A stretch of 64,000 nt of DNA. Source: Deltaproteobacteria bacterium. Its GTDB lineage: Bacteria > Myxococcota_A > UBA9160 > SZUA-336. The notes under the pieces are model-generated. The model was given only the letters and a program-made list of their open reading frames with translations, was not told the DNA's origin and made no database searches. Each line of letters begins with the position of its first letter. Position 1 is the first letter of the stretch. Where the stretch lies: assembly GCA_029261895.1 (NCBI GenBank), contig JAJDAK010000013.1:8183-72182 (forward strand), read 5' to 3'. The position numbers and the translations under genes are program-made. This document shows positions 11,460-27,760 of the stretch, in pieces.

Positions 11460-12263
11460 ATGAAACTTGCTTTGTTGCCAGAAAATGGGTTGGTGGCACC
11501 TCACTACGCGGCGGATGTGGCGATGCTCGCAGAACGCCTGGGGTTTGAATCGCTTTGGTGTCTCGAGCAGGTGATTTTACCGAGCACGACTAAACTTTCG
11601 TATCCGTATTCGGGCAGTGAAAAGCTTCCGATCGAAGACCTGCCACTACCCGACCCGATCACCTGGTTGAGCTTTGCGGCCGGAGTAACGACGAAGCTTA
11701 AGCTCGGCGCGGGCGTGCTGATTTTGCCGCAGCGTAATCCGGTTTTATTCGCGAAGGAACTCGCCACACTCGATCAGCTGAGCGGCGGCCGCGTGTTGCT
11801 CGGTATGGGAATGGGCTGGCTCCGCGAGTCAGGACGGTCGAAAGAGATCGCCTTCGAACCACCCGCACTGCGGATGGATGAATACATAGAAGGCATGCAG
11901 CGCCTCTGGCGCGAGCCGCGTGCGAGCTACGCCGGTAAGCATGTCTTCTTTGGAGACGTGCGTGGGCATCCGCGGCCGGTCAAAGCAGAGATTCCGATTC
12001 TGATCGGCGGAAATTCTGTGGATGCTGTCGCTCGTGCGCATCGCTTGGGATACGGGCTCGCGCCGTTTGGCGCACCTACGTCGGAGATTGAAAACCTCAT
12101 ACGCAGTTCGCAGGTCCCAACGACATGTTTCGGTGCGCCGAATCTTGAGATTGCAAAGCGTTACCGCGAGCTGGGCGTCGATCGCCTGATCGTCCGCACG
12201 GATGAAACTGATCTAGAAACGCTTGAGCGTGAACTTAAGCGTTTCGCTACGGCGCTTGGATAG
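11460..12263 (+). CDS. luciferase-like monooxygenase (LLM) class oxidoreductase, probably F420-dependent
   Basis: The track ORF starts at 11346. I prefer the ATG at 11460 (MKLALLPE...). LGFESLW, LGAGVLILPQRNP...AKELATLDQLSGGRVLLGMGMGW is the LLM TIM-barrel core. The cofactor (F420 or FMN) cannot be decided by eye. Confidence 0.7.
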   Translation: MKLALLPENGLVAPHYAADVAMLAERLGFESLWCLEQVILPSTTKLSYPYSGSEKLPIEDLPLPDPITWLSFAAGVTTKLKLGAGVLILPQRNPVLFAKELATLDQLSGGRVLLGMGMGWLRESGRSKEIAFEPPALRMDEYIEGMQRLWREPRASYAGKHVFFGDVRGHPRPVKAEIPILIGGNSVDAVARAHRLGYGLAPFGAPTSEIENLIRSSQVPTTCFGAPNLEIAKRYRELGVDRLIVRTDETDLETLERELKRFATALG

Positions 12264-15200
12264 AGATCGAACCGTCTTCACCGTCTCCAAAGAAACCATC
12301 ACCACCCGTACTTGTCACCGCGCCGCCCACGCTCGCAGAAACGGATGCGTTAATCGCAATGCGACCTCCGCCACCACCGGTTCCGTCGGCACCGCTACGA
12401 TTCCCACCGTCCGCGCTGACGGCTCCGATGCCTGAATAGGTTTCAACAGCGAGGTTGACGGTACCACCCGAACCTTCACCCGCTCGGCTGCCATTGCCAA
12501 GACCACCGTTCGCTCGAATCGCGCCGTTGTTGATGACGTCGTCCGCGATGATGAGGATCCGTCCACCGCCGTCGCCGCCATCGGTGCCCCCAATTGCACC
12601 GCCACCACTGCCAAGGTCGACCGGGTTCAAGACGTCACCGTACACTGGATTGGGGACACCCGTACCAGCGCTAGTTCCATCTCCACCTAACCCGCCGTGG
12701 CTTCCGCCCGTTTGCGAGGTCGAACCCGTGGTAAATCCGACGGTGGTTCCGCTTTCGCTAGTGTCCTTGCCACCGAGGAACCCAAGTCCCGTAACATCAA
12801 TGGCGCTATTCGGATCGATCACGAGTGTGCCGGTCATCACATCGAGCTTGCCCGCGTAGCTATCGGACGTCTTTTCATGAGTGAGCCGGCCGAATTCCTT
12901 GAGGTCAATCGTGCCCGTCACATCGAGCTGGTCCGACGTATTGAGATGTCCACCACGGCGGAACTCGAGGTTGTCGAAGATGAAGTAACCTACGTATTCC
13001 GCACTAACCGATGCAACACTCGAAAAATCAACACCATTGCTGTTCGGTGTGATGACCGTGATCGAGTTTGCATCGTTTGACGTGATCTCGAAAACTTCAT
13101 CTTGCGATGTATCCGGGTTCACGAAGTTACCCACGAAGCCGTTGGCCAAGAACGGTCCGAGTGCGCCGTCGACGGTGAGCACATCACCCGTGACAGCCGC
13201 AGTGATTCCGGGTCCGATCAGCATCAGGTCGGTCGCAACCGGCCACGTGGCCCCGGGTGTGCCGCCATCGATGATGAGGTCACCAGCCAGTTGCTCGTTC
13301 GTATTCGTAACGATGGTTCCTGCAGCACCATCGGGACCAAAGAAACCATTCCCACCGAAAGCGGAGACGTTGCGCAGGCCACTGAGATCATCGGTTGCGT
13401 CGAGTGAATCCATGTAAATCGCAACGCGACCGCCGCCACCGGCCGTGCCATCGAAACCGCCACGGCTGCCGCCGTTCGCACGGATTTCACCCGTTCCCGC
13501 AAGCATGCCCGTGGTAATCCAAATCGAACCGCCTGAGCCTTCACCCGCGCGTGAGCCGTTACCGAGCCCGCCGTTGGAACGGATCGCCCCATCCACACGA
13601 AGCTCGTTGGTCACGATCAGACGCACGAAGCCGCCGCCGTCGCCACCGTCGGTGCCACCACTCGCGCCACCGCCACTACCGAGGAGGCTCGGGCGCTTGG
13701 GATCCCCATACACCGGATCCGGGAAACCACTGTTGCTATCGCCGTCGCCACCGATGCCACCGTAACTACCACCCACTTGATCATGTGTACCGGTAACGCC
13801 ACCCAGAGTTGTACCACGCTCGCTGCCGCTCTTACCGCCGCGATAGCCACGGCCCGTCACGTCGATTGCGCTACCGGCCTCAACGAAGATCGAATCTGCG
13901 TTGATCAACAATCCTGCTTCGCTCTGCTTTGCGTGCGTCAGCGTTGAGTTCCCGCGGATTTCCAATGCACCGCTCACACTGATGCCCGCTTCGCTCACCG
14001 TGTGCGCACCGTTCCTCAAGATGATGTTGTCGAAGCTAAACCCTGAAGGAATGATTGACGCGTCATCAGGCTCTGAGGTTCCGAAACCATCGATGATGAG
14101 ATCACCGAACGTCTGACCCGGGGTCTTTGTAAAGACGGTTCCGTTTCCACCATCGTCAAAGAATCCGTTGCCACCGAGCACGCTCACGTTGGTCAACGGC
14201 AGCGTCGCCGTGTTATAGCGCAGCGCGATGCGCCCACCGCCACCAGCGGTACCGTCCACGCCATTGCGACTGCCGCCGTCCGCTCGAATGACGCCCGTGC
14301 CGTCAAGTGACGTGGTTTGAATACCGATCGACCCGCCTGAGCCTTCGCCCGCTCGACTTCCATTGCCAAGGCCACCGTTCGAGAGAATCGCGCCATCGTT
14401 CACGATCTCGTTTGCATCGATGAAGATGCGACCGCCGCCGTCACCGCCATCAGTGCCGCCGCTTGCGCCGCCCCCGCTGCCGAGATCGATTGGGTCGGTG
14501 AGGTCACCGTAGATGGGGTTCGGAATAGAGCCGCCCCCAAATTTTCCGTCGCCCCCAAGCCCACCATAGCTACCACCGGCCTGATCCGTAGCGCCCAGGA
14601 CATTCCCGAGCGTTCTACCGGACTCGCTAGTCGCCTTACCACCAAGATAACCGCGAGCCGTCACTTCGATGCGACTGTTGGGATCAATCAGCAATCGATC
14701 CGTAGTGACATCAAGTGTCGCTTCGTACACGAGATTCGATTCTGGATGCGTGAGCAAGCCGAATTCCTTTAGGTCGATCGTGTCATTAACTCGGAGCAGA
14801 TCCGCCAAGATCAGATATCCGCCGCGGCGGAACTCAAGATTGTCGAAAATCCAAGAACCCGCGTAGGACGCACCTACGCCTGCAACCGATGCGAAGTCGA
14901 CGCCATTCCCATTGGGCGTGACGACCGTAATCGAGTTCGCGTCGTTGGAAGCAATCTCGAAGACCTCGGCCTGAACGATATTCGGATTCAGGTGGTGGCC
15001 AACAAAAGCGTTTGGCAGGAATCCTGGCAGCGTGCCGTCGACGGTTAGGCTGTTCGCGGTGACGGCTTGCGCAACACCAGGACCCATAGGTAGCAATGGC
15101 GTTCCATGAGTCGTCGTCTTAGACGACTCAGCATCATCGATGATGAGATCCCCATCGGATTGGCCCGTTTGATGCAGAAAGATCGTTCCGGCCGTGGCAC

Positions 15201-18200
15201 GCGCGAAGAAGCCGATCCCACTGAAGGCCGTGATGTTACGCTGACCGTTCAGGTCATCGAGCGGATCGATGAAATCGTACTCGATCGCGATACGGCCACC
15301 GCCACCACCGGTGCCGTCCACACCATTACGACTGCCGCCGTTCGCGGAGATCGTACCCACACCGGATAGCTTCGATGTGGTAATCCAAATCGACCCACCC
15401 GAGCCCTCGCCCGCACGACTCCCGTTGCCAAGCCCACCATCGGCACGCAACGCACCATCAACGTGGACTTCGTTGCTTACTATCAATCGGAGGTATCCAC
15501 CGCCGTCGCCGCCATCAGTACCGCCGCTCGCGCCGCCGCCGCTACCCAGTCGGTTCGGTCGCTTGGGGTTGCCGTACACCTGATTGGGGATTCCACCCCC
15601 ACCAGAGACGCCATCGCCTCCGAGTCCGCCGTAACTTCCACCTGACTGGGACGTAGAACCCAGAATATCGCCGAGTGTTCGACCCGACTCGCTGGTTGCC
15701 TTGCCACCACGATGGCCACGCCCCGTGACGTCGATCTCGGAGCCGAGCTCGACAATCACGGAATCCGCCGTGATCAGTAAGCCGTTGGGATCCTCGCTCG
15801 GATGCGTGAGTACAGAGTCACCCGTCAACAGTAGCGTGCCGCTTATCACGATCTTCGAACGCGCGATCACACGCGCACCATTGATGAGCGTGAGGTTGTC
15901 GAAGACCTGCCCCGCGGGCAACACGAGATCGGTAAACGGCGAGCCCGGGCCGACGCCGCTGATGACGAGATCACCGTCGACCTGGTCGTCCTGCTTCAGA
16001 AAGACGGTGCCGTCTGCGCCGTCATCGAAGAACCCATTGCCACCCTGTGCGGTAATGTTACCCAGGTTGGCGGTCGTCAAATCCAAGTACGAGATCGCGA
16101 TACGCCCGCCGCCGCCACCGGTACCATCGACACCATTGCGACTTCCACCATCGGCTTGGACGGTTCCCATACCCGAGAGCGTGCGCGTGGCGATGTTGAT
16201 ACCGCCGCCGCTGCCTTCGCCGGCGCGGGAACCGGCGCCCAATGCGCCGTTGCTTCGAATGGATCCGTCGACCGCGACGTTGATCGCGTTGAGCAGAAGC
16301 AGGCCGCCGCCATCACCTCCGTCAGTGCCGCCGCTTGCTCCGCCGCCACTACCGAGTTCCATCGGGTTAGTGAGATCGCCGTAGACGGGATTGGGTGTGC
16401 CACCACTACCGGAGACACCATCGCCGCCCAGGCCGCCATAGCTGCCGCCGGTTTGCGAAGTGGACCCTGGCACGTTGCCGAGCGTTTGACCCGACTCACT
16501 CGTCGCTTTACCTCCGAGATAACCGAGGCCCGATACATCGACGGAACTCGTCATATCGACCGTGAGCGTCCAAACGTCCAAGTCGAGCTCGAACTCGTCC
16601 ACGAGGTCTGTCTTGCGGTGCGTTAGTTTACCGCCGTTCACGATTTCGACGTTCCTAAAGGCGTGCGCGCCGACGATCGTGACCGTCGCACCATCGATAC
16701 GTATGTTTTGATCATCGAAGATCGGAGCCAGGATTTCCGTATCAAGGTTGAACGTCGCGACTGCGGTGCCCGTGCTGAAAGTCGTGGCCGGCAGAATGTC
16801 TGCGACTGGCTTGCCGATATTCGGATCGGTCATCACATCTTCGAGATTACCCGCGGCATCCACACCCAGCGTGAAGAATTCGAAGTCGCCGTCTCCGCCC
16901 ATGCGCGTGGAGTCGAATTCGATGGTTCCGTTAGAACCGCTCTGCGGTACGAACTCGCCGAGCGGATTCCCGCCCGCAGGGTCGGTAAAGCGGTTGAATG
17001 TGCCGATGCCGTCGCGCCTGAAGAAGAGCCGCACGTGATCGATGTCCGCGACGCCGTCCGTGATTTGGTAACCCACCGTCGTTGTCGCGGAGCTACCCGG
17101 ATTGCCAACGCTAATGACTTCAGTCATCGGTGGTGTGATATCCGCATCGGTGATCAGAATGTCGACCGGTGCTGCATCGGTTTCATTACCCGAGGCATCG
17201 CGGGCAAATGCCGTGATGCGAACATCGGGATCGGTGAGGCCGAAGGGCACGTCGAAGGTGAGCGTGGCGTTCGCATCGTTGCCCGAGACCACAATCGAGT
17301 CCGAGGTCACGAGTGCGCCTGAAGTATTGAAACCCACTTCCGCAAGTGCGACGTCATCCTGCGCGGTCACACGCAGGGTAACGGTATCGCCGAAATTAAA
17401 TTGCGTATCGGGGACGGGGCTTAAGAGTTGCACTGTTGGTGGCGTGTCATCGACCACCGTGAGGGAGATCGAATCGACCGGGGAAACGCCTCCGCTGGTA
17501 TCTTCAGTGAAGGCGTCGATGTCAATCGTACTGCTGATCGGCGCATTGGCGTCCACGTTGAAGTTGAAGAGCTGAATCGTATTTACGGACGGCGTTCCAA
17601 GGACTCTAACTTCACTGAACGTGGCGCTTCCCGTCACATCAACATCGAAGATGGAAACGCCGCCCGGCGCGTCCGTTCCCCGGACCGAAAGCGTAATCTG
17701 TTCGCCGCGTTCGAACTCCGCGCCGTCACCGGGCGATAGAATCTCAACGGTCGGCGGCGGATCGGACGCGATATCTACACTGACCGGGATCTCGATCGGA
17801 ATCTCACCGCTGCGAGATACGAAGACTGATGTGCTACCTTCGCCGATCGCGGTGACCAGTCCCGAGGTGTTGACCGTGGCGACACTCGGATTGCCGATGG
17901 AGTAAGCATTGCCCTCGGTGAGCGGCGAAGAGCTTCCGTCACTGAAAAATCCGGTCACACCGATCTGCACTGTCTGCTGCAGGAACGTGAACGAAATGGT
18001 GGTCGGAGCCACCGTGAACGAATCTAGCGTAACGACATCCACATTCACCGGGATCTGATCCATAACACCGTTCAGCGTAGCGCTGATGTTCGCCGTACCA
18101 TCGGCGATCGCGAGCACGCGACCGGTTCCGCTTACAGACGCAGCCGCGATATTGTCGGAGTCATAGGCCACTTGGTTGGTGACATCCGTAGACGATGCGT

Positions 18201-21144
18201 CACTGAAGAACGCCGTCACCGTCACATCTGCGAAATCAGCCAACGCGTTGAACGTGAGTGAAGTCGGCGTGATCTGCAAACCGGTCAGTACCGCTGCGAC
18301 CGGAGCCACAACATCAGTCGGCGCGCTCGGGCTCGCGGATTCCGAGAGACTAAACGCAATTAATCGAAGAACGTCCCCGGAGATTGCGTTGACGGTGGTA
18401 GTGAAGGCGCCTGTGGCGTCAGCGAAGACGGTAGATTCGGTGGCATCGGTGAGGTTGGTGACGTCGATGCGAGCGCCAGGAACGCTCGTGCCTGTGATGG
18501 TGGTTTCACCGTTGCTATCCGGAACTGAGACTGTACTCACGAGCGGGGCGGCAGGCGGGTTGCCAGTTGGCTGATCCAGGACGATAAAATCGAGTACCGC
18601 GTCAGGGTTTGCGGCGCTATTCGTCACACCGACGTTATTCGTGGCTTGAATGATGACCTGATGCGCACCCGCGGCGAGCGCGGCGGTATCGACCAAGAAG
18701 GCCTCGCTACCCTCGAAGAGTGGCGTACCACCGAGCGTATCGAGGAAAAAACTCACGGACGCGATGCCCACCGGGTCGTCCGCATTGCCGTTGACCGAGA
18801 ACTGCGAACCCACGATGTACTCGGCACCATCGGCTACACCGACGAATTCAACCATCGGCTCGTTCGGATTCTCGACCAGCTCAAAGCTAAACGTGTCTTC
18901 GGTTGTTTGGCCGAGACCGTCCTCCGCGACGGCGCGAATGGTATGCGGCCCCAGTGGCAACTCGCTGGTTCGCAACGACGCCTGGAACGGTGAGATGAAC
19001 ACCGTCTTAAAGGGTTCGAGTTCGGCGTCGAGGAAGTACGTGATCCGCTGCACCGCACCGGAAACAAACTCGGGAATCACCGTGACCGAAATACCCTGCA
19101 GGACCGGATCATTCGGATCATCGGGCAGGATCAATGTTGGCGGTGCATTCGAGGTCGCGATCACGGCAGCGACGGTCGCGTCTTGACGGTTGCCCGCCTT
19201 ATCGAAAGCGCTGCCCTTAAACTGATAGGTATGGCCGGGCACGAGTCGACCTGAATCGATCGCAAACACGCAGGGCAAGGTCGTCGAATCAAAGACGGTC
19301 TTCTGATCGATCAACTCAAATGTGGGATTGTTGGCATCCTGGTCTTGGATCCGCAGTTCAACGCGATCGAGTCGACTGCCTTGGTCGGTGGGGAATGCGT
19401 CGATCTCTATGATCTGCCCGGGCAAGACGTTCGTCGGGTCGACCGGCGGTTGAATCGCCATCGTGAGGAACGGTGGCGTCGTGTCGTTCGTTGGATCCGT
19501 CGTCGTAAACGTGCTGGTCCACTCATTGAAGAGTTGATTGCCGTCGAGGTCTCGAATGCCGTTGCTGACAAAGATGGTGTACTCGGTGTTGCCATCGAGC
19601 TTGCCGAAGTTATCGAAGCGCTGCCAAACCGCCGCCGTGCGTTCCAAAATGATATCGGTCTGAATAAACCCGGGAACGGCCTGGCCCAGATCATCGAAGA
19701 CAGTGAACGTTGATTCCGACTTGATCGTGTCGTCATCCATCTTCTCGCTGAAGAACGCGACTACGGGCGAATCGGGATTGATGCCGAAACTATTTGGGGT
19801 CGGTAGCACCGAGACGGTGGGAATGCCCTCGGGCTCACCGAGATCCGGCGGGAATTTTCCTACGACACAACCCAAGTTCCCAACGAAGACCTCAAGCGCG
19901 ATGTTCTGATCTGAGACGCCCATGCATGAGCTCAAAGGTCCGGTCGAAAACGGTGTAACGGTAAAGATCTCAAGCACTTTTTGACCGGGCAGAATATGGC
20001 CCAGGTCTCGCGTCTGCGAGCCTTCGATCAATACGCAATCCGGTTCCATCGTCGCTTCGTTGATGGTGCATTCCGTGAGTTCCGCATCCGCACCCACGTC
20101 GAGTTCAAGCGAGGCATAGAGCGCAGGAATCTCATCGGTGTTGGTGATCTCAACACTGAGTTCGTACGGTTCGAATGCCGTGACCGTATCTGGGTGCACG
20201 ACTTTGACCGTGAACTGCGGCGGACCTTTGACCTCGACCTCCGTCAATGCCGAGCCACTGAACGGAATCGGATCGTTGGGATCGATGCCGGGGCCCGTGA
20301 GCTCGCCACCAAAGTCCACGCGCACGGGCTGAACACCGATCTCATCACCGCGAATGATGAACTCTCGTTCCTTTTGTGCGGGCGATGTCGGAGTTCCCGG
20401 AAGAATCGTGTTGAAGAGCGCGATGCCGTCAGCCGGGAAGGTATTCGAGAGCCCGCCTTCGGGAAAGTCGATCATCGCCGTCACGTTCTCCAACGTGAAG
20501 ATGCCCGATGTGTTCATCAGCAGCAGACGCACGCTGAAGAATTCTTTCAGTGTCTTGATATCACCCTGAATGATAATGACACCCGGGATTCGGGGTCGAA
20601 TCTCTAAGTCGCCGGGCGGCCTAGTTTCAAAAACGATGATCTGCGTATCCGAAACCCTTCCTGCTCGACCGCCGCCGAGCACACGCTTCTTTAACAGAAT
20701 CTCCTCGAATTCTTCCTCTGGTACCTTGGGAATCGCGACGGGAATATCGAATACGAAGGATTCCTTCGCGATCGTGAGCGCGATCGCGAAGCTCGACACG
20801 TTGAAGTTCTCAGGGTCGTCGAGGTCGATGATGCCGTCTTCGACGAGTTGCTCGATCTCCTCGACCGAGAGCCGTTCGGCTTTAACTTCGGCGACAACGA
20901 TTTCATCCAGGGAGATCTGTGTAATTTCGAGGTCGCGCGAAACTTCATTGCCCGCATTGTCTTCCGCAGTCACGGTGAAACGGTTCACCGCGTTCTTACG
21001 CAGCGGGACATTCGGGAAGACCCACTGCCCGGCCGTGTTTGGATCCTGCGGACCAAGTCGCGCGCCACCGTTCAGCGAGATCGTCGTGTCCGCCGAGGCG
21101 GTCATCGCGAAGAGCAGCATCAGCGTGGTGAAGAAAGGCCTCAT
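12247..21144 (-). CDS. giant secreted protein (2,965 aa): Ig-like N-terminal half plus five glycine-rich beta-solenoid-like modules
   Basis: The track ORF 12247..21207 is trimmed to the ATG at 21144 (MRPFFTTLMLLFAMTASA-DT, a Sec signal peptide). That ATG overlaps the upstream stop as ATGA. Domains by eye: an SbsA/Big_5-like Ig domain (approx 19498-19821); further Ig-like units with TPP.V..L.P boundaries; two Big_2 domains (approx 17773-18285); then the Gly-rich array at 12250-16719. No C-terminal sorting signal recognised. Confidence 0.85.
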   Translation of the reverse strand: MRPFFTTLMLLFAMTASADTTISLNGGARLGPQDPNTAGQWVFPNVPLRKNAVNRFTVTAEDNAGNEVSRDLEITQISLDEIVVAEVKAERLSVEEIEQLVEDGIIDLDDPENFNVSSFAIALTIAKESFVFDIPVAIPKVPEEEFEEILLKKRVLGGGRAGRVSDTQIIVFETRPPGDLEIRPRIPGVIIIQGDIKTLKEFFSVRLLLMNTSGIFTLENVTAMIDFPEGGLSNTFPADGIALFNTILPGTPTSPAQKEREFIIRGDEIGVQPVRVDFGGELTGPGIDPNDPIPFSGSALTEVEVKGPPQFTVKVVHPDTVTAFEPYELSVEITNTDEIPALYASLELDVGADAELTECTINEATMEPDCVLIEGSQTRDLGHILPGQKVLEIFTVTPFSTGPLSSCMGVSDQNIALEVFVGNLGCVVGKFPPDLGEPEGIPTVSVLPTPNSFGINPDSPVVAFFSEKMDDDTIKSESTFTVFDDLGQAVPGFIQTDIILERTAAVWQRFDNFGKLDGNTEYTIFVSNGIRDLDGNQLFNEWTSTFTTTDPTNDTTPPFLTMAIQPPVDPTNVLPGQIIEIDAFPTDQGSRLDRVELRIQDQDANNPTFELIDQKTVFDSTTLPCVFAIDSGRLVPGHTYQFKGSAFDKAGNRQDATVAAVIATSNAPPTLILPDDPNDPVLQGISVTVIPEFVSGAVQRITYFLDAELEPFKTVFISPFQASLRTSELPLGPHTIRAVAEDGLGQTTEDTFSFELVENPNEPMVEFVGVADGAEYIVGSQFSVNGNADDPVGIASVSFFLDTLGGTPLFEGSEAFLVDTAALAAGAHQVIIQATNNVGVTNSAANPDAVLDFIVLDQPTGNPPAAPLVSTVSVPDSNGETTITGTSVPGARIDVTNLTDATESTVFADATGAFTTTVNAISGDVLRLIAFSLSESASPSAPTDVVAPVAAVLTGLQITPTSLTFNALADFADVTVTAFFSDASSTDVTNQVAYDSDNIAAASVSGTGRVLAIADGTANISATLNGVMDQIPVNVDVVTLDSFTVAPTTISFTFLQQTVQIGVTGFFSDGSSSPLTEGNAYSIGNPSVATVNTSGLVTAIGEGSTSVFVSRSGEIPIEIPVSVDIASDPPPTVEILSPGDGAEFERGEQITLSVRGTDAPGGVSIFDVDVTGSATFSEVRVLGTPSVNTIQLFNFNVDANAPISSTIDIDAFTEDTSGGVSPVDSISLTVVDDTPPTVQLLSPVPDTQFNFGDTVTLRVTAQDDVALAEVGFNTSGALVTSDSIVVSGNDANATLTFDVPFGLTDPDVRITAFARDASGNETDAAPVDILITDADITPPMTEVISVGNPGSSATTTVGYQITDGVADIDHVRLFFRRDGIGTFNRFTDPAGGNPLGEFVPQSGSNGTIEFDSTRMGGDGDFEFFTLGVDAAGNLEDVMTDPNIGKPVADILPATTFSTGTAVATFNLDTEILAPIFDDQNIRIDGATVTIVGAHAFRNVEIVNGGKLTHRKTDLVDEFELDLDVWTLTVDMTSSVDVSGLGYLGGKATSESGQTLGNVPGSTSQTGGSYGGLGGDGVSGSGGTPNPVYGDLTNPMELGSGGGASGGTDGGDGGGLLLLNAINVAVDGSIRSNGALGAGSRAGEGSGGGINIATRTLSGMGTVQADGGSRNGVDGTGGGGGRIAISYLDLTTANLGNITAQGGNGFFDDGADGTVFLKQDDQVDGDLVISGVGPGSPFTDLVLPAGQVFDNLTLINGARVIARSKIVISGTLLLTGDSVLTHPSEDPNGLLITADSVIVELGSEIDVTGRGHRGGKATSESGRTLGDILGSTSQSGGSYGGLGGDGVSGGGGIPNQVYGNPKRPNRLGSGGGASGGTDGGDGGGYLRLIVSNEVHVDGALRADGGLGNGSRAGEGSGGSIWITTSKLSGVGTISANGGSRNGVDGTGGGGGRIAIEYDFIDPLDDLNGQRNITAFSGIGFFARATAGTIFLHQTGQSDGDLIIDDAESSKTTTHGTPLLPMGPGVAQAVTANSLTVDGTLPGFLPNAFVGHHLNPNIVQAEVFEIASNDANSITVVTPNGNGVDFASVAGVGASYAGSWIFDNLEFRRGGYLILADLLRVNDTIDLKEFGLLTHPESNLVYEATLDVTTDRLLIDPNSRIEVTARGYLGGKATSESGRTLGNVLGATDQAGGSYGGLGGDGKFGGGSIPNPIYGDLTDPIDLGSGGGASGGTDGGDGGGRIFIDANEIVNDGAILSNGGLGNGSRAGEGSGGSIGIQTTSLDGTGVIRADGGSRNGVDGTAGGGGRIALRYNTATLPLTNVSVLGGNGFFDDGGNGTVFTKTPGQTFGDLIIDGFGTSEPDDASIIPSGFSFDNIILRNGAHTVSEAGISVSGALEIRGNSTLTHAKQSEAGLLINADSIFVEAGSAIDVTGRGYRGGKSGSERGTTLGGVTGTHDQVGGSYGGIGGDGDSNSGFPDPVYGDPKRPSLLGSGGGASGGTDGGDGGGFVRLIVTNELRVDGAIRSNGGLGNGSRAGEGSGGSIWITTGMLAGTGEIRANGGSRGGFDGTAGGGGRVAIYMDSLDATDDLSGLRNVSAFGGNGFFGPDGAAGTIVTNTNEQLAGDLIIDGGTPGATWPVATDLMLIGPGITAAVTGDVLTVDGALGPFLANGFVGNFVNPDTSQDEVFEITSNDANSITVITPNSNGVDFSSVASVSAEYVGYFIFDNLEFRRGGHLNTSDQLDVTGTIDLKEFGRLTHEKTSDSYAGKLDVMTGTLVIDPNSAIDVTGLGFLGGKDTSESGTTVGFTTGSTSQTGGSHGGLGGDGTSAGTGVPNPVYGDVLNPVDLGSGGGAIGGTDGGDGGGRILIIADDVINNGAIRANGGLGNGSRAGEGSGGTVNLAVETYSGIGAVSADGGNRSGADGTGGGGGRIAINASVSASVGGAVTSTGGDGFFGDGEDGSISIQAP
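12250..16719 (-). repeat. coding super-repeat: 623/624-aa (1,869/1,872-nt) unit present about 2.4 times, containing five glycine-rich modules
   Basis: Anchor strings are IFDNLEFRRGG at 14841 and 12972, and IFDDQNIRIDG near 16719. The Gly-rich cores lie at roughly 16087-16527, 15286-15723, 14215-14655, 13414-13851 and 12349-12786. Confidence 0.85.
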
Positions 21145-24100
21145 GGCAGCTGAAGCTCCCGTCGTGACAGACCCACGGGCTCCATCGGGATGACGACGGC
21201 CTGCCACTCGTCTTCGCCGGTCGCTACGTTCGAGAGCTGAACCCGCGCACGGATCTCTCGGCGCTGATGATCGAACTCGGTCGGATCCAGCACGAAATGC
21301 GGATTGCCGTTACGGTCGAGCCTCACCAATACGTCGTTCTCCTTGCTGAAGTTCACCGTCTTCATCGCACGGATTTCGTTGGTCTTCTTTACAACCACCG
21401 GCAGCAGGAACTGCTGAACACCCGATCGAGTAGATACCACGAGCTTCTTGCGTTCCTGATCCAGCTCGATATCGAATGGCGAATCGTTGACACTAAGGAT
21501 GGGCACTGCGTTCGGCGGGTCGGCCAAGACGTCTTCGAGTGCCCTGAGCTCGTCGATCGTGATCGTGAAGATGTCTCCCGAGTTGAAATCGGCAAAGTAG
21601 AAGTTGCCGGCTTCATCAAACGCCATCCCTGAGAACTGGCGACCCGATTCAATGATCAAGGCGAGAAGCGAACCGGTGCCCAGACTCACGTTGTGGGTAA
21701 TCAGCCAGATTTTATCTTTATCGGAGAGATAGATGCGTTGGATCTCGCTGCCCTCTTCCCGCGGCAGAATTTCCATATCCGACGGCCCACTGAGATCCAA
21801 AAGGTCGCTTTCGATCAACGTCTGCCCGACCAGGCGGATCCTTTGAAATTGCGTGCCATAAGAGTTGGGGAACGCTTCCGCGGCTCCGACCGGAATCGCC
21901 TTGATCTGTTTGCGCCCCGCCCCTCCGGAGTTGTTGTTGTTATCGAGGAAGTCGATATTCGCGATGAAGTAAGTCGGCACGTCCTTACCCGCCAGATTGA
22001 ACTCGCCGATCGCACCCGTAATTGGATTGGCGGGTCGCGCGTAGAGGAGCATCTGACTGAAATAGTTGATCGAACCCGCAAACTCGCGACGGAAGTTCTC
22101 TCCGGGGAACCAGCGGAAGTTGCGACCGCCGTAGCGTTGGTTCGAATTGAAGTTATTGGCGTAGATCAAGTCGTTCGGGTCCACGGATAAAAATTCGGGA
22201 GGGAATCCGGCACGGATCTCAAAGAAGTCCTCGCCTGCATCGGGATATAAGGTAGTAAGCCAACCCTGCTTGCGTTCGTCGAGCTGTTCACCGGTCGCCG
22301 GGTCAATGACGGGTTGACCGTCGTCATCCACCACCAATGTACCCTTGCGCCCCGCAAGAATACCGCGGAAGTTATTCAAGTTCGGATGCGCTTCGATGAC
22401 AATCGGTGCAGTTTCACGGCTAAAGTTCGTGAACATGTGGACCGCAGAGAAATCGCTGTAGATGACCTTGAACGCTTTGCTGAAATCGTTCCAAACGTCT
22501 TTGAGCGCGATGAAGTTTGCACCCGCGGACGCGACCTGTGCACCGCGTTGGATGCCCTTCTTGTTACGAACTAACACATTCTGTTGGTTGCGAGAATTTG
22601 CGCGCCGGTTTTGCATGCCGACTTCAGCCCGCTGATAGTCGACTTGCGCGTTTGTCCGATTGCGCTCCAACGAGCGCTGAACTTCAGCGCTGTCCTTAAT
22701 CCGAGCCTTTTCAGCATCCCACTCCGGCCCAACGCGCTCCCGTACCATATCGTCGGATAGGCGATTGACCTCGGTATTGGCCGCCTCGAGCTTCGGACGC
22801 GCATCCTTAATCGTTTCCTTTTCGAGTTCGATCGTGTTGTTCACGAACTCATCAAAGATCGCAAGGTCGGCTGGGTTACTCGGATTCACATCGAAGTCGA
22901 ACGGAATGACCGAACCATTCGGCTGGATCTGGTCGAATTGGACTTCAACCGTCCGAGTGGAACCGAAGTTCCGAAGCCGCTGCATATCAGTTTTGAGCTG
23001 ATCGATATCCGCAAGCGAGTCCTGGGCCAGGTTGATGCGAGTTTTTTGGAACTCCGCGTTCTTGGTTTCAAGCGCGATGCCGGTGAGGTTCGTTTCCACC
23101 CCAGGGGGCAAGGTCCGCAATGGATCGCCGAGAATGTCTCTTGCTCGCCCGTTCGCATCCGATTCGACGCGCACGAGGTCGAAAGGGTCCGAACCACTCG
23201 CACCGTGCTCAATCGCAAGGCGCTTCAGCTGATCCGCTTCGCGGATACCCTGCGCGTGCTCGTTGCGGAAACCCGCGAGGTCGGTCGAACTTCGACTACG
23301 GTGCCGCGATTCAGCGGCCCCCAACGCATCCATCTCATAGCGAGATTGATGGATCGCCTCATCGAAATCGACTTGAAAGTCTCGCTGAAAGTCAGCACGT
23401 GCGCGCATTTCAATCAGTGCAGCTTCGGATTCGGTAAGGTCGAATTTAAACTTCACAATCGTACTGTCGCTCACCGTATCAGGGATCGAAGTGTTCACAC
23501 CTAATTGCGACTCGAAGGGGAACGCGATCCGTGCCGCATTCAGACTGAACTCCGCCTGGGAAACGTACTGCACGGTTGCGATGCGGAAGAAGTGCACGCC
23601 GATCCGAAGGCGTGCTACCGGAATCACGAATTGCAACTTGCCGGGGTTGTCTAACGATTGTTCAAGCGTGGCAAAGTTGACCAACGTCGCGTTGCCGATG
23701 TTGAGTGTCTCTGGGTTATTGAATTCAAAGAGCTGATAGGTAAAGCGCACCCATTCATCGGGAATCCCCGGTGAAAACGGTGGCGCGGATTCCGCGCCAC
23801 TGGGCGAGAACACCAGAATAAACTTATCGCCCTCGATTCGGCTCGACTCCGGGATCGGTGGCGGCGGTTCAACGCTTTGCGCAGCGGCGGCCAAACCCAA
23901 GCCGAAGAGCAGCTTTTGAATGATGGCATCCATCACACCGCCGAGCAGCGCGGTTACCGCGGCAGTCGCTGCAACCGCACCCAACGCACCGCCCGTCGCC
24001 CCCGCAGAAGCCGCGAGTGCGACCTGCATCGCTACCGCGATGGCCGCGCCAATCGCATTACCGATCGTCACTTCAGCCAGGAATGCCTTGCCGGAGTAAC

Positions 24101-27100
24101 TCATGATACGCGTAAAGGTTCGAGCGCGGAACGGGTTGTCGACACCACCCGCGTTATTGAGTGTGATGCCACCCTCTTGCGCGTGCGCCACACCGGTGCC
24201 GATGAAGTCCTCAACAAGTGAATCGATTGCGGCGTAGAATTGGCTGCGCGACTCGAGCGAACGCGGCGCGCCGGCGACAACGGAATTCGGATCCACGCCC
24301 TGGTCGATGATGATTTCATCGATCGATTGTTCGATGGTGGTCTGATTGAAGACCAGGAAGCTCTGAAGGAGTAACGCGGCCTGCACGCGGTTGAGGCGCG
24401 TGTTGGGCGAAAGCAGCGGCGGCTCGACGCTGACCTGGGTACCGTCATTAAAGAGTGTGAGGGCCATCGCGTTGAGCGGGTTTTCAGGTTCTGCCCAAGC
24501 GACGTTGACGGCTTCCTGCCAACCGAGAATGGCGTTTTCGAGCACCAGGTCTTCGCCGAAGAAGCTGAAGATATTCGTCAGCATCCAGACGATGTCTCGG
24601 AGCGTGTAGACATCGCCGCCGATCAGTGCGCGTGCTTGAGCTTCGAGACCCTTGGGCGTGAGGGAAAGAATGCCCTCGCCAACGATATTCGGATTGAGCT
24701 GATTGCCGTCTTCATCGAGCAGCCCGACGTCGTTGCCACCGACCGTGAGATAGACATCGCGCACCAACTCGATGGCTTGATCAAGATCGAGGCCACCGCC
24801 GTCTTTCGCGCTAAAGCCGCGATCCAGAACACTCGCGGGTGAAGGTTCTGCCGGCAACGAACCCGCGGGTGCCGCAGGGCGTGCCAGAGCGCGCAAGCTG
24901 ATTTCATCGCCGAGGCTGATCTCCTGGTTGGTGTCGACCGCGATTTCGATCTTATTGACCTTGAAGTTCGGCGCCATCACGAGCAGCGTTTGAATGCCAT
25001 CCGGCACGCCGTCCAAGAAGAAGCTGCCATCCGCGCCTGTCGTCGTGGAGATATTGGTGCCGTTGATGGTGATCAACACGCCAGCAAGCGGTGCCTGCGT
25101 GAATGGATCAATGACCTTACCCGCAACACTGGCCGCGCCTTCGGTCACATTGAAGGCGACCGCCGAATAAATCTCACCGTCGGCTTCCACCATCTTGACC
25201 TGGCGTTGACCGACTTCGGCGTCTTCGTCGATTTGCACCGTCGCATGTGCTGATGTCGGCGACAGAATCTCAAAGTCGGTGACTTCGGTACCGGGACCGA
25301 AGTCGGGCACGCTCTTTCCAGCCTCAAACGCTGTATTCAACGCGTTGAGGTCGACCTCAACGGTGCGTCCCTGTCGTCCGGTCGCAGGACTCAGTCCGGT
25401 GATGAAGGCGGGAATCTCAGGTGCGGCCGGCTGCCCCGGCTCGCCCGTCACGTTACCCGAGATCGTTTGGCGCGTGCGGAACGTCGGCGAAACCGTCTCG
25501 TCAACCACGAGCTCCAGCACCTCTGCCGGTGGGGTCACGTCATTGATGAGAATCGTCACCGTCAGCGGAACCATGACGGTGCCATCGCTGACTTCGAAAT
25601 CTACGTCAACGCTACCCGACTGATCGAAACTCGGCCGAAATGTGAAGACGCGCGTGATCTCGTTGAAGAAACTATTTTCAAGTGCCAGCCCCGGTGCGCT
25701 GAAGCGGAGTGGATCGCCGTCGGTATCCGTCGCTGAAACCGCAAAATTCAGCTCCTGGCCTTCATCAACGGTCGGCGAACCCGCAGGATCGAAGATCGGG
25801 GGTTGATTGTCCTTGAGGACCTCAACAGTCACCAACGTCGAAACGTTTTCGTTCGCGAAACGCGCGCTGAAGGCAAGCGTGTGAAACCCGACCTGATTGG
25901 GATCAGGCGTAAAGGCGAAGAGGCCTGAATTCAGATCCGCGTTCGATGGCAATGGGTCCACACCGAGAATCGCATCCGCGTAATTTGAACTGACCGGGAG
26001 TTGCAGCTCGTCACCCACATTGACCTGGAACGCGCCACTCGGTGAAAGCAATGAGAGCGGGTCATCGATAATGGTCAGATCAAATGACTGCCGCGCGTTC
26101 AAGCCATTCGGGTCTTGCACACGCAGGATCAACGTAACCGGACCGACGGCACCCGTCGGGGGTGTCCAAACAACCAGGCCGGAATTCGGATCGATCGTCA
26201 TGCCAGTCGGTGTATTGGCATCAAAGAGGTAAGTGAGCGGATCCTGCTCAGGATCGAACGCTTCTACGTCGTAAGTGTAGAGCTCGCCGACTTTGGCATA
26301 GGGCTGGGGAAACGACGTGATGATCGGAGGATCGTTCGTCGTCCCTACATTGATCGAGTAAATCTGCTTCGATGCCTGACCCGCTGCATCGGTGACGCGA
26401 ACCTCGACATTGTGATTGCCAAGTTGGCCCTCGCGCGGAACCCAGCTCACCTTCCCCTCGCTCGACATACTCATGCCGGCGGGGCCAGCACCCAAAGTGT
26501 AGAACAGCGCCGCTTGCTCGGGATCTTCCGCTAATACGGGATAGTCGTAGATGCGATTCTCGAATCCAGTAACAGGCGGCGTCGAAAGAATATTCGGTGG
26601 CAAATTTCCGGCGCAGAGCGCCACGTCGTCGACTTCGCCATTGCAGTCATCGTCGATCTGATTCTCACAGAGCTCCGGCAACGGCGCACCGGCTTCGCAG
26701 GTTTGGAGTTCACCAAAGAGACAGTTGTCGACGGTCCTGAAGCAAGCACCGATGCCGCAGCTGCTTTGGCCGAGCTCGTCATCGATCTCGCCGTCGCAAT
26801 CGTTATCGATCCCGTCACAGGTTTCGATCTCAGGATTCGTCGCCGCACAGATGGAATCACCAAAGGGACCATCGGGGCAAGTGGTCAGACCATTAGCGCA
26901 AACACCCTCGAGCCCGGTCTCACAAACCTCACCCACGATGCAGCTGACCACCTGGCAGAGTGGCGGATCATCGACCACGCCATTGCAGTCGTCGTCGAGA
27001 TCGTTCGAACAAACCTCGGTGACCGCGCCCGCATTGGGGTCGCAGAGCTGAGGCTGACCGTCCTGGCAGTTATCGACGCTCTTCGCGCAGATCCCGATGC

Positions 27101-27695: not shown

Positions 27696-27760
27696 GCCCG
27701 GCGGGCCGCAGTCTATCACTGCGATTGCTGAACTGGAACGTTCGAGGTTATGATCCAGCC

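What the first reader, a model, noticed from the sequence alone, without database searches (positions are those of the whole stretch)
12250..16719. 1,490-aa array of five glycine-rich beta-solenoid-like modules organised as a 623-aa A-B-linker super-repeat
Seen: the C-terminal half of the 2,965-aa protein is a 623/624-aa super-repeat (1,869/1,872 nt). The anchor strings are IFDNLEFRRGG at 14841 and 12972, and IFDDQNIRIDG near 16719. The unit is present about 2.4 times, giving modules A1-B1-A2-B2-A3. Every module shares a strictly spaced core. It reads GY.GGK.TSESG.TLG (then ~10 aa) GGSYGGLGGDG (then ~8 aa) PNPVYGD...P..LGSGGGASGGTDGGDGGG (then ~20 aa) NGGLGNGSRAGEGSGGSI (then ~15 aa) A.GGSRNGVDGT.GGGGRIA. 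The core is preceded by L.I.V rungs that end in THxxx, as in right-handed beta-helices. After each B module comes a ~150-aa non-Gly linker (LTVDG.L..FL.N.FVG...NP...Q.EVFEI.SNDANSITV.TPN.NGVDF). Copies look roughly two-thirds identical at protein level by eye and are clearly diverged at DNA level, so the array is old and maintained rather than an assembly artefact. Only isolated strings fit the RTX nonapeptide (GGLGGDGVS). It is not collagen-like or random low complexity. I cannot name a family for this module.
Basis: seen in the sequence. Interest (0 to 1): 0.7.

Follow-up and report, generated by a model that had tools for sequence, protein, structure and literature searches.

The report
Uncatalogued glycine-rich beta-solenoid module array
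The C-terminal half of a roughly 3,000-residue exported protein from an uncultured Myxococcota-like bacterium consists of five copies of a ~265-residue glycine-rich beta-solenoid domain that is very common in giant surface proteins of uncultured microbes, matches no curated family or solved structure, and has no known function.

Summary
ORF 12247..21207 (-), with a likely ATG start at 21144 (2,965 aa), ends in five ~265-aa modules that are 23-25% Gly and 50-61% identical to each other. They are arranged A1-B1-linker-A2-B2-linker-A3, with a 624/623-aa super-repeat that is 59% identical in protein and 66% in DNA.

AlphaFold2 models are very confident (pLDDT 93-96, pTM 0.91-0.93). Each module is a beta-solenoid: three short N-terminal coils, a 78-aa Gly-rich segment without regular secondary structure, then ~33-aa coils closed by stacked 17-residue Gly arcs. 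The linker is a folded ~83-aa beta-rich domain.

Pfam, NCBIfam, PDB sequence and profile searches, and Foldseek against PDB all find nothing specific. The family is nevertheless large: 13,224 clusters at 50% identity (4,951 at E<=1e-30), in proteins of up to ~7,000 aa with 1-12 modules, across many bacterial phyla and some archaea, often fused to Ig-like, RHS or dockerin domains.

Full-length orthologs (40-51% identity) keep the same five-module layout and the same giant upstream partner gene. Asp in the Gly arcs is not conserved, so the module is not RTX-like.

Most likely it is a rigid extracellular rod or contact module at the distal end of an Ig-stalked surface fibre. This is a new domain family within a familiar class; its function is inferred, not shown.

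The parts
12247..21144 (-). Gene for the 2,965-aa exported giant protein. The mechanical ORF starts at GTG 21207; the likely start is ATG 21144; the stop codon is 12247-12249.
   Evidence: single ORF. (ATGA overlap with the upstream stop). (the ortholog shows the same 4-nt overlap).
21088..21144 (-). Predicted Sec signal peptide MRPFFTTLMLLFAMTASA|DTT.
   Evidence: Read from the translation. Inferred from the n/h/c-region pattern; no predictor was run.
16726..21087 (-). N-terminal stalk of bacterial Ig-like domains (Big_13, Big_5, Big_6, Big_2 x2, Big_7 x3, HL_N-beta-like).
   Evidence: Pfam scan.
15925..16725 (-). Module A1 (aa 1495-1761), glycine-rich beta-solenoid.
15103..15909 (-). Module B1 (aa 1767-2035), joined to A1 by 5 residues.
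14854..15102 (-). Linker domain 1 (aa 2036-2118), a small beta-rich domain.
   Evidence: linker 1 vs linker 2 scores 262 against 30 for shuffles. (a linker HMM finds it in 164 of 268 family proteins).
14056..14853 (-). Module A2 (aa 2119-2384).
   Evidence: Modelled.
13234..14040 (-). Module B2 (aa 2390-2658).
   Evidence: Modelled.
12985..13233 (-). Linker domain 2 (aa 2659-2741). In the model it has five short strands (model residues 549-600).
   Evidence: DSSP. (about 80-column Foldseek hits to small beta-barrel domains; their assignment to the linker is inferred).
12250..12984 (-). Module A3 (aa 2742-2986). It is the C-terminal module and the protein ends with it.
   Evidence: pLDDT 96.3. 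(in the closest homologs the last module also ends at the C-terminus).
21141..27719 (-). Upstream, probably translationally coupled (ATGA start/stop overlap) partner gene of ~2,190 aa. It has a signal peptide, TSP3, MopE-like Cys repeats, He_PIG, Big_9/Cadherin_5 and CarboxypepD_reg, followed by ~1,240 aa with no match.
   Evidence: A comparable partner sits upstream in the four other loci examined.

Best explanation
The five modules are copies of a previously uncatalogued, widespread extracellular domain of about 245-270 aa, a glycine-rich beta-solenoid.

Fold. Each module starts with three short coils (a 10-residue strand, a turn, a 3-residue strand; the second coil ends in the conserved L-T-H). 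Next comes a 78-residue Gly-rich segment that is modelled confidently but has no regular secondary structure (GY.GG...GGSYGGLGG...PNPVYG...P..LGSGGG...GGDGGG). Then come three to four coils of 33-34 residues. In these, a long strand and a short strand form two faces, and a 17-residue Gly arc (A-x-G-G...G-x-G-G) closes the third face.

Assembly. A and B are joined by only five residues and probably form one continuous rod. A small ~83-aa beta-rich domain then connects to the next A module.

Biological role. The protein is exported by a Sec signal peptide. Its N-terminal ~1,450 aa of Ig-like domains probably act as a stalk, and the solenoid cassette A-B-l-A-B-l-A is probably the rigid distal part of a cell-surface or extracellular fibre. 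That part would make multivalent contact with a surface, polymer or another cell. It probably works together with the giant protein encoded by the overlapping upstream gene.

Shown: the repeat architecture, the fold class, the absence from curated libraries, the family size and spread, the conserved operon, and the exclusively extracellular domain partners.

Inferred: rod continuity, surface location, the adhesion or contact role, and cooperation with the partner.
For: Architecture.

Fold:
- The AF2 model of A2-B2-linker-A3 has pLDDT 93.2 and pTM 0.91. The A3 model has pLDDT 96.3 and pTM 0.93.
- DSSP shows regular strand-turn-strand coils. Isolated bridges at A3 residues 134, 169 and 202 (spacing 35 and 33) put the Gly arcs in register.
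- The 33-34-aa internal coil repeat is visible in all five modules.
- Strands continue through the A2-B2 junction.
- The only weak structural neighbours are beta-solenoids: EtpA TPS domain, Ag43, ice-binding proteins, bactofilin and GH110.

Family:
- 991 proteins at E<=1e-5 among short entries.
- 13,224 clusters at 50% identity at E<=1e-3 and 4,951 at E<=1e-30, in proteins of ~700-7,090 aa (many of the short ones fragments), with 1-12 modules per protein.
- At least 196 confirmed genomic loci in Nitrospirota, Verrucomicrobiota, Desulfobacterota, Myxococcota, Bdellovibrionota, Acidobacteriota, Patescibacteria and archaea.

Extracellular context:
- A signal peptide and Ig-like domains in this protein.
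- Fusion partners elsewhere are RHS/YD, LamG-like, dockerin, cadherin, CarboxypepD_reg, SdrD_B, PPC and Big_5.

Repetition: up to 12 copies per protein, with conservation dominated by Gly plus a few residues (H36, D63, Y69, S95, Y115, P121, R208, T239). This fits a structural or avidity module better than an enzyme.

Conserved two-gene unit.
Against: - No member has any experimental or curated functional annotation, so the adhesion or contact role rests on analogy and domain company only.
- No known outer-membrane export or anchoring signal was found in this protein. It has no T1SS/RTX, T5SS barrel, T9SS CTD, PEP-CTERM or LPXTG.
- Model coordinates could not be inspected. Rod continuity, handedness and the conformation of the Gly-rich segment are therefore unverified.
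- Several polar residues (H, D, S, R) are conserved in about 77-98% of 563 modules. They could mark a binding or catalytic site rather than serve a purely structural role.
Confidence: 0.55

Rival explanations
1. RTX-like calcium-binding beta-roll. The Gly/Asp-rich arcs would bind Ca2+ and fold only outside the cell, as in T1SS-secreted RTX adhesins and toxins.
For: The window's modules are rich in G and D (GGLGGDG, GGTDGGDGGG, NGVDGTGGGGG). Two strings fit GGxGxDxUx. The upstream partner carries TSP3 and dockerin-like Ca-binding motifs.
Against: - There is no HemolysinCabind hit even at E<=10.
- The coil period is 33-34 aa, not 9 or 18.
- Arc Asp residues are not conserved across 563 modules. 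D138 is N 32%, D 27%, A 15%; D135, D200, D234 and D237 are each below 20%.
- The protein has an N-terminal Sec signal peptide rather than a C-terminal T1SS signal.
Confidence: 0.07
2. Enzymatic beta-helix. Each module would be a catalytic domain, either a polysaccharide lyase or hydrolase like the pectate-lyase-fold enzymes, or a hydrolase using the conserved His36/Asp63/Ser95 (GGSYG resembles a GxSxG motif).
For: H36 (83%), D63 (77%) and S95 (83%) are conserved in all five window copies and across the family. The best Foldseek hit of the cassette is a GH110 beta-helix glycosidase (E 1.5e-3).
Against: - The GH110 hit has TM 0.12 and probability 0.23. The single module has no hit below E 0.36.
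- No Pfam enzyme family matches.
- Loss of H36 and loss of D63 are uncorrelated across 563 modules (OR 1.2, p 0.5).
- Five to twelve tandem catalytic copies in one chain would be unusual.
- In so Gly-rich a sequence, a GxSxG match is expected by chance.
Confidence: 0.1
3. Polyglycine-II-type receptor-binding domain. The Gly-rich segment and arcs would form a lattice of PGII helices, as in the phage T4-like gp38 adhesin tip, the ALK/LTK glycine-rich domain, the snow-flea antifreeze protein or PE_PGRS models. The modules would then be specific receptor-binding heads rather than rods.
For: - A 78-residue stretch has pLDDT above 90 but no DSSP helix or strand. This is what PGII helices look like to DSSP.
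- It contains clustered Gly motifs with conserved aromatic or His residues (GGS[YH]GG, VYG).
- The top PDB hit of the single module by E-value is a gp38 receptor-binding domain (9v85_C).
- BFVD neighbours are Gly-rich 'collagen-like' giant-virus proteins.
Against: - The gp38 hit is insignificant (E 0.36, probability 0.02, TM 0.13).
- Pfam Gly_rich models do not match.
- Isolated beta-bridges in register (residues 134, 169, 202) indicate stacked beta-arcs of a solenoid.
- More than half of each module is ordinary strand-turn-strand coils.
Confidence: 0.15
4. Targeting or delivery module of polymorphic toxin systems. The module's primary role would be to bind target cells or to present C-terminal toxin cargo, as in relatives where it precedes RHS/YD shells. 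The window protein would be a cargo-less derivative.
For: Many relatives carry RHS_repeat, DUF6531 or TEN_YD-shell domains C-terminal to three or more modules.
Against: - The window protein and its orthologs end exactly with the last module and carry no toxin or RHS domain.
- Most family architectures consist only of modules, linkers and Ig-like or other adhesin-type domains.
- No immunity-like small gene was noted downstream; the next ORF is a luciferase-like monooxygenase.
Confidence: 0.1
5. Not a real feature: low-complexity Gly-rich sequence or a mis-assembled repeat.
For: The modules are 23-25% Gly. The sequence comes from a metagenome.
Against: - Strictly spaced non-Gly conserved positions exist.
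- Alignment scores are more than 100 SD above shuffles.
- DNA copies are only 60-88% identical.
- The same five-module layout occurs in seven independently assembled homologous proteins.
- Model pLDDT is 93-96.
Confidence: 0.01

Closest known systems
Parallel beta-helix passenger and adhesin domains of Gram-negative surface proteins (autotransporters such as Ag43, pertactin and Hbp; two-partner-secretion TPS/FHA-type domains such as EtpA and HxuA; Pfam clan Pec_lyase-like)
   Same: They share a single-chain stacked-coil beta-solenoid in very large extracellular proteins, a repetitive pattern of inward-facing hydrophobic residues, and modules used as rigid rods or adhesive surfaces. They are the only kind of PDB structure that Foldseek returns at all.
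   Different: There is no significant structural or sequence match (best E 0.36-0.63, TMq <=0.33). One face here is built from 17-residue Gly arcs instead of a third beta-sheet. A 78-aa Gly-rich insertion is present. There is no T5SS barrel or TPS secretion signal. The modules are discrete ~265-aa units separated by small linker domains.
RTX calcium-binding beta-roll (Pfam HemolysinCabind, PF00353)
   Same: Both are Gly- and Asp-rich solenoids in giant exported proteins with Ig-like stalks, as in LapA, SiiE and MpIBP-type adhesins.
   Different: The period is 33-34 aa rather than 9. The nonapeptide occurs only twice. The Asp residues are not conserved. There is no HMM hit. The protein has a Sec signal peptide and no C-terminal T1SS signal.
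Glycine-rich polyglycine-II domains (phage gp38 adhesin tip, ALK/LTK glycine-rich domain PF12810, PE_PGRS)
   Same: All have clusters of GG-containing motifs punctuated by conserved aromatic or His residues, and a long confident segment without DSSP helix or strand.
   Different: There is no HMM hit. The gp38 Foldseek match is insignificant (probability 0.02, TM 0.13). Most of the module is a regular beta-solenoid.
Predicted Gly-rich solenoids of giant viruses and phages in BFVD (Bathycoccus virus PA14-domain protein A0A7S6NY19, Ostreococcus mediterraneus virus 2 A0A6H1QWC9, Orpheovirus and Pandoravirus 'collagen-like' proteins, uncultured Caudovirales proteins)
   Same: These are the best structural neighbours found (E 2e-8 to 2e-4, probability 1.0, TMq 0.36-0.53, 12-20% identity). 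They are also Gly-rich, also uncharacterised, and also part of large surface or fibre proteins.
   Different: They are predicted structures only, and none has a known function. TM values near 0.5 with rmsd 6-19 A indicate a similar class rather than the same domain. tblastn against 50,697 phage genomes found no homolog, and only 3 IMG/VR contigs carry the module's motifs.

Membership tests
RTX / HemolysinCabind beta-roll | Tandem nonapeptides GGxGxDxUx | tested here: not met
   Only two isolated matches in 1,492 aa. No PF00353 hit at E<=10.
RTX / HemolysinCabind beta-roll | Invariant Ca2+-ligating Asp in each turn | tested here: not met
   Arc Asp positions are below 30% conserved across 563 modules.
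RTX / HemolysinCabind beta-roll | C-terminal T1SS secretion signal, no N-terminal signal peptide, adjacent ABC/MFP/TolC genes | tested here: not met
   An N-terminal Sec-type signal peptide is present. The neighbouring genes scanned are not T1SS components.
Pectate-lyase-like right-handed parallel beta-helix (Pfam Beta_helix, Pectate_lyase, autotransporter and TPS passengers) | Profile match to a clan member | tested here: not met
   No Pfam or NCBIfam hit on the modules. The PDB profile search gave 0 hits at E<=1.
Pectate-lyase-like right-handed parallel beta-helix (Pfam Beta_helix, Pectate_lyase, autotransporter and TPS passengers) | Three-sheet (PB1-PB3) right-handed coil superposable on known members | tested here: inconclusive
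   Foldseek returns only such proteins, but at E>=0.36 and TMq<=0.33. DSSP shows two strands per coil plus a Gly arc.
Polyglycine-II glycine-rich domains (gp38 / ALK GRD, PF12810) | HMM match to Gly_rich families | tested here: not met
   No hit at E<=10.
Polyglycine-II glycine-rich domains (gp38 / ALK GRD, PF12810) | Lattice of PGII helices in the structure | not testable with these tools
DSSP leaves residues 64-141 unassigned, which neither supports nor excludes PGII.
Collagen-like repeats | Long uninterrupted G-X-Y tracts | tested here: not met
   One run of four triplets in 1,492 aa.
The new family itself (module defined by the five-copy HMM) | About 245-270-aa unit containing L-T-H, I-D-V-x-G-x-G-Y, GGS[YH]GG, VYG...P..LGSGGG, GG[DN]GGG, GxGSGG and GGGGGR[IV]A in fixed order and spacing | tested here: met
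   All five window modules align in register. 563 full-length instances from 268 proteins keep these positions at 77-100%.
The orthologous group of ~2,950-3,000-aa 'MMlMMlM' proteins | Ig-like N-terminal half, five modules with two linker domains ending at the C-terminus, and a giant partner gene immediately upstream | tested here: met
   P0126, P0130, P0131, P0138 and P0142 align over the full length at 40-51% identity with modules at matching positions. The partner gene is present in the window and in four other loci.

The most novel reading that the evidence does not exclude
The module would be a new hybrid fold: a beta-solenoid whose third face and 78-residue insertion are built from stacked glycine arcs or polyglycine-II-like segments. 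It would define one of the largest still-uncatalogued extracellular domain families (more than 13,000 clusters at 50% identity, in bacteria, archaea and some giant viruses). It would act as a generic, rigid, multivalent cell-contact device, used both in free-standing giant fibres such as this one and as the targeting end of RHS-type toxins. The invariant Arg, His and Tyr positions would form a repeated ligand-binding site.
Probability: 0.2. Interest if true: 0.65.

Novelty: new variant of a known kind. Interest (0 to 1): 0.4.

Why it matters
Giant surface proteins of uncultured bacteria are mostly unannotated. This module alone accounts for thousands of residues in each of thousands of such proteins, and it currently receives no annotation from Pfam, NCBIfam or PDB-based tools.

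Defining it as a family would do three things:
- It would annotate a large amount of metagenomic dark matter.
- It would flag extracellular fibres and the N-terminal regions of RHS-type toxins.
- It would give structural biologists a compact, confidently predicted target: module A3 (245 aa), or the A-B pair.

A cultured carrier, Microbulbifer sp. TYP-18, makes functional tests feasible. The finding does not yet change understanding of any mechanism.

Tried and rejected
- Pfam and NCBIfam scans of the whole protein and of single modules and the linker, down to E<=10, gave nothing on the C-terminal half.
- PDB sequence search with one B module plus linker, and a profile search with 60 sequences, gave nothing meaningful.
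- Foldseek against PDB was run with the three-module model and with the single module. It returned only generic beta-solenoids at non-significant scores.
- tblastn against 50,697 phage genomes gave no match.
- The first genome-contig scans failed. Alignment A1 was too diverse. The single protein yielded only window-specific peptides and found no relative. A small alignment centred on GGSYGGLGG and GGGGGRIA solved this.
- Looking up source names for ten large relatives returned only 'hypothetical protein' or nothing.
- Three literature searches and a reading of the 'giant genes' preprint found no description of this module.
- The catalytic-triad idea (H36/D63/S95) was tested by co-loss statistics and is not supported.
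- The RTX/Ca2+ idea was rejected on motif counts and lack of Asp conservation.
- C-terminal tails of relatives were inspected for sorting signals. They are a linker plus a truncated module, with no known sorting domain.
- The partner protein's C-terminal 1,240 aa was checked against Pfam at E<=1 and against PDB, with nothing found.
- Model coordinates are not exposed to the sandbox. Handedness, PGII content, residue clustering and rod geometry therefore could not be measured.


Full report
**1. What is in the sequence**

The finding lies in a single uninterrupted ORF on the minus strand, 12247..21207, with 2,986 codons from the first GTG. The ATG at codon 22 (nt 21144) overlaps the stop codon of the upstream gene as ATGA. 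An ortholog has the same 4-nt overlap. It begins MRPFFTTLMLLFAMTASA|DTT, which I read as a Sec signal peptide by inspection. The first ~1,450 residues carry Big_13, Big_5, Big_6, Big_2 (x2) and Big_7 (x3) Ig-like domains.

IFDDQNIRIDG is at aa 1496, and IFDNLEFRRGG is at aa 2120 and 2743, giving periods of 624 and 623 aa. An HMM built from the five copies delimits the modules:

| Module | aa range |
|---|---|
| A1 | 1495-1761 |
| B1 | 1767-2035 |
| A2 | 2119-2384 |
| B2 | 2390-2658 |
| A3 | 2742-2986 |

This corresponds to nt 12250-16725. Two ~83-aa inter-module segments follow B1 and B2.

**2. Is it more than chance or artefact?**

- Modules are 50-61% identical (A-A 55-58%, B-B 61%, A-B 50-54%).
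- The two full super-repeats are 59% identical in protein and 66% in DNA.
- Composition-preserving shuffles score far lower: 1843 vs 135 +/- 15 for the super-repeat, 649 vs 88 +/- 13 for A1/B1, and 262 vs 30 +/- 5 for the linkers.
- At DNA level the copies are 60-88% identical, with no long exact repeats that could confuse an assembler.
- Seven independently assembled homologous proteins have five modules in the same order, six of them at nearly the same positions; five of them align with the window protein over essentially its full length at 40-51% identity.

**3. Fold**

Two AlphaFold2 models were made with homolog alignments.

| Model | Length | pLDDT | pTM |
|---|---|---|---|
| A2-B2-linker-A3 | 868 aa | 93.2 | 0.91 |
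| A3 alone | 245 aa | 96.3 | 0.93 |

In A3 numbering, DSSP shows the following:
- Three short coils come first: strands 2-8/13-16, 20-28/33-36 and 47-56/61-63. The second ends in the conserved L-T-H.
- A 78-residue Gly-rich stretch (64-141) follows. It is confidently modelled but almost without assigned secondary structure.
- Regular coils follow, each with a 10-11-residue strand, a 2-3-residue turn, a 3-residue strand and a 17-residue Gly arc (142-174, 175-207, 208-238). A final strand closes the module.
- Isolated beta-bridges at residues 134, 169 and 202 (spacing 35 and 33) put the Gly arcs in register.

The 33-34-residue coil repeat (x-I-x-I-x4-L-x3-G-x-I-x-A-x-G-G ... G-x-G-G) is visible directly in all five modules.

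In the three-module model, strands continue through the five-residue A2-B2 junction. The high pTM also implies a fixed relative arrangement. I infer a continuous A-B rod, but I could not inspect coordinates.

The segment after B2 forms five short strands (model residues 549-600). Foldseek hits of about 80 columns to small beta-barrel domains probably correspond to it. These include the phage tail-tube protein 9n71_A (probability 0.97) and the N-terminal barrels of F1/V1-ATPase subunits. The tool does not report query coordinates, so this assignment is an inference.

The 'linker' is therefore a folded ~83-aa domain.

**4. Comparison with known families**

- No Pfam or NCBIfam model matches the C-terminal half, even when modules are scanned alone at E<=10.
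- phmmer and a 60-sequence profile find nothing in PDB sequences.
- Foldseek against PDB with the pLDDT-96 single module gives no hit better than E 0.36. TMq does not exceed 0.33.
- The list consists of generic beta-solenoids (EtpA and HxuA TPS domains, Ag43, Hbp, ice-binding proteins, bactofilin, tapirin) and an insignificant gp38 match.
- The cassette's best hit is a GH110 beta-helix at E 1.5e-3 and TM 0.12.
- Against predicted viral structures there are seven hits with E<1e-3 (TMq 0.36-0.53, 12-20% identity). They are prasinovirus, Orpheovirus and Pandoravirus 'collagen-like' or PA14 proteins and uncultured phage proteins, all uncharacterised.
- tblastn finds no homolog in 50,697 phage genomes, and only three IMG/VR contigs carry the motifs.

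The RTX idea fails on several counts:
- There are only two nonapeptide matches.
- There is no HemolysinCabind hit.
- The coil period is 33 aa.
- The Asp residues of the arcs are not conserved in the family. For example, position 138 is N 32%, D 27%, A 15%.

Collagen-like periodicity is absent.

**5. The family**

A search with one super-repeat found 991 proteins at E<=1e-5. A profile search of 1.84 billion cluster representatives found 13,224 at E<=1e-3, 9,269 at E<=1e-10 and 4,951 at E<=1e-30. Listed members range from about 700 to 7,090 aa, and many of the short ones are fragments. Among the 268 proteins in hand, each carries 1-12 modules.

Architectures include the window's MMlMMlM (at least 12 clusters), alternating MlMlMl..., and pure MMMMMMM arrays. 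Some have modules at the N-terminus followed by thousands of other residues.

Domain partners are all extracellular: Big_7, Big_5, LamG-like, dockerin, cadherin, CarboxypepD_reg, SdrD_B, PPC, and RHS/YD shells with DUF6531.

A motif-seeded scan of GTDB species representatives confirmed at least 196 loci. They lie in Nitrospirota, Verrucomicrobiota, Desulfobacterota, Myxococcota, Bdellovibrionota, Acidobacteriota, Spirochaetota, Patescibacteria and several archaea. Nearly all are MAGs.

One cultured carrier is Microbulbifer sp. TYP-18. Its ORF of more than 3,596 aa has a signal peptide followed by at least 8 modules. No source gives any of these proteins a functional name.

Across 563 full-length module instances, conservation is dominated by Gly. 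The other conserved positions are H36 (83%), D63 (77%), Y69 (78%), S95 (83%), Y115 (93%), P121 (95%), R208 (98%) and T239 (89%). Loss of H36 and loss of D63 are not correlated, which argues against a catalytic dyad or triad.

**6. Genomic context**

The window is chromosomal. It carries PolA, a ClpA-like ATPase, a thiolase and a TonB-dependent receptor, among others. It comes from a metagenome. The PolA's best named relatives are Myxococcota or 'Deltaproteobacteria' MAGs at only 59-63% identity. This indicates a diderm of a poorly sampled lineage.

Immediately upstream, overlapping by ATGA, is another giant gene (21141..27719, ~2,190 aa). It has a signal peptide, TSP3 and dockerin-like motifs, four MopE-like Cys-rich repeats, He_PIG, Big_9/Cadherin_5 and CarboxypepD_reg. 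Its last ~1,240 aa contain a long Ala/Gly-rich hydrophobic segment and match nothing in Pfam or PDB.

A comparable giant partner gene (Big_9 and CarboxypepD_reg domains; 1,746+ to 2,143 aa) lies directly upstream of the ortholog in all four other loci examined. In one of them (L001) the ortholog itself is split into several gene calls. The two genes therefore form a conserved unit.

**7. Most likely mechanism**

Shown:
- The protein carries an N-terminal signal-peptide-like sequence, read by inspection, and has an Ig-domain N-terminal half.
- The C-terminal half is five discrete Gly-rich beta-solenoids with two small linker domains.
- This layout and the partner gene are conserved.
- The module occurs only alongside extracellular domains.

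Inferred:
- The Ig array acts as a stalk.
- A-B pairs form rigid rods. Roughly 7-10 coils per module at ~4.8 A per coil gives about 4-5 nm per module.
- The cassette is the distal, contact-making part of a surface or extracellular fibre that acts through multivalent binding.
- The partner protein helps in anchoring or assembly.

Why these inferences:
- The heavy use of Gly lets the arcs pack tightly against the sheet.
- The nearly invariant Arg that follows the GGGGG run may cap the stacked arcs.
- High copy number and Gly-dominated conservation favour a structural or avidity role over catalysis.

I put about 0.55 on this overall picture. Fold class and family status are much more certain than function.

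**8. Rivals**

| Rival | Confidence | Status |
|---|---|---|
| RTX-like Ca2+ roll | 0.07 | Motif and Asp tests failed |
| Enzymatic beta-helix or H/D/S hydrolase | 0.10 | No match; co-loss test negative |
| PGII-lattice receptor-binding head like gp38 or the ALK GRD | 0.15 | Cannot be excluded without coordinates |
| Toxin-targeting module as in RHS-fused relatives | 0.10 | This protein has no cargo |
| Artefact or low complexity | 0.01 | Refuted |

**9. Novelty and verdict**

The thing itself is a new, very large domain family within a familiar class: beta-solenoid modules of giant extracellular proteins. It is not a new kind of system.

It is worth cataloguing and is a good structural-genomics target. 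With no functional evidence and no bearing on an open question, interest is moderate (0.4).

One side observation is that paralogous modules within the window protein are as similar or more similar to each other than to their positional orthologs. Modules 2 and 4 are 61% identical and modules 3 and 5 are 58%, against 51-57% for orthologs. This hints at old intragenic homogenisation.

Noticed in passing
window 21141-27719 (-): The upstream giant gene (~2,190 aa) overlaps the start of the finding's gene by ATGA. Its last ~1,240 aa include a ~60-residue Ala/Gly-rich hydrophobic segment and a charged, coiled-coil-looking stretch, and they match nothing in Pfam (E<=1) or PDB. A comparable giant partner gene (Big_9 and CarboxypepD_reg domains) precedes the ortholog in four other loci (L001, L079, L081, L082).
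   Followed up: partly
window 27725-28360 (+); L081 17199-17834: A 211-aa ORF with weak PEP-CTERM-family hits sits next to the giant gene pair in the window. A 211-aa PEP-CTERM (PF07589) protein also sits next to the ortholog in L081. This may be a conserved third member of the locus.
   Followed up: no
window 12250-16725 compared with orthologs P0126 and P0130: Paralogous modules inside the window protein are at least as similar to each other as to the corresponding modules of orthologs. Modules 2 and 4 are 61% identical and modules 3 and 5 are 58%, against 51-57% for orthologs. The five-module layout is nevertheless shared by all orthologs. This suggests ancient intragenic gene conversion or parallel constraint.
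   Followed up: partly
L038 9614-20402 (Microbulbifer sp. TYP-18, NZ_JBFRBC010000002.1): A cultured gammaproteobacterium encodes an ORF of more than 3,596 aa that runs off the fetched locus. It has a signal peptide followed directly by at least 8 copies of the module, which makes it a possible experimental handle.
   Followed up: partly
Relatives P0137, P0145, P0148, P0152 (C-terminal ~170 aa): Several family members end with a linker domain plus a truncated module (its first three coils only). The chain terminates in a C-x-x-C-P motif (CADCP, CINCP, SNYSCP) of unknown meaning.
   Followed up: no
L083, L084, L085 (IMG/VR contigs); BFVD hits A0A7S6NY19, A0A6H1QWC9, S4VX73: The module's motifs occur on three viral contigs, one of them 320 kb long. 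Structurally similar Gly-rich solenoids are predicted in prasinovirus, Orpheovirus and Pandoravirus proteins annotated 'collagen-like' or PA14.
   Followed up: no
P0028 (812 aa); L079 18986-21964: P0028 carries two modules (aa 218-812) yet is listed with Pfam Trans_reg_C and AAA_16. In L079 a 992-aa Trans_reg_C/AAA_16 regulator lies directly downstream of the ortholog. This could be a real fusion, a gene-call artefact or linked regulation.
   Followed up: no
window 33530-34726 (-): A 398-aa ORF has no Pfam or NCBIfam match.
   Followed up: no
P0015; L021, L039, L064, L073: The module is present in MAGs assigned to archaea (Methanomethylicaceae, Woesearchaeota, Methanobacterium, Aenigmatarchaeota, Methanosarcinales) at 39-50% identity to the bacterial consensus. 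This points to either inter-domain transfer or binning contamination.
   Followed up: no
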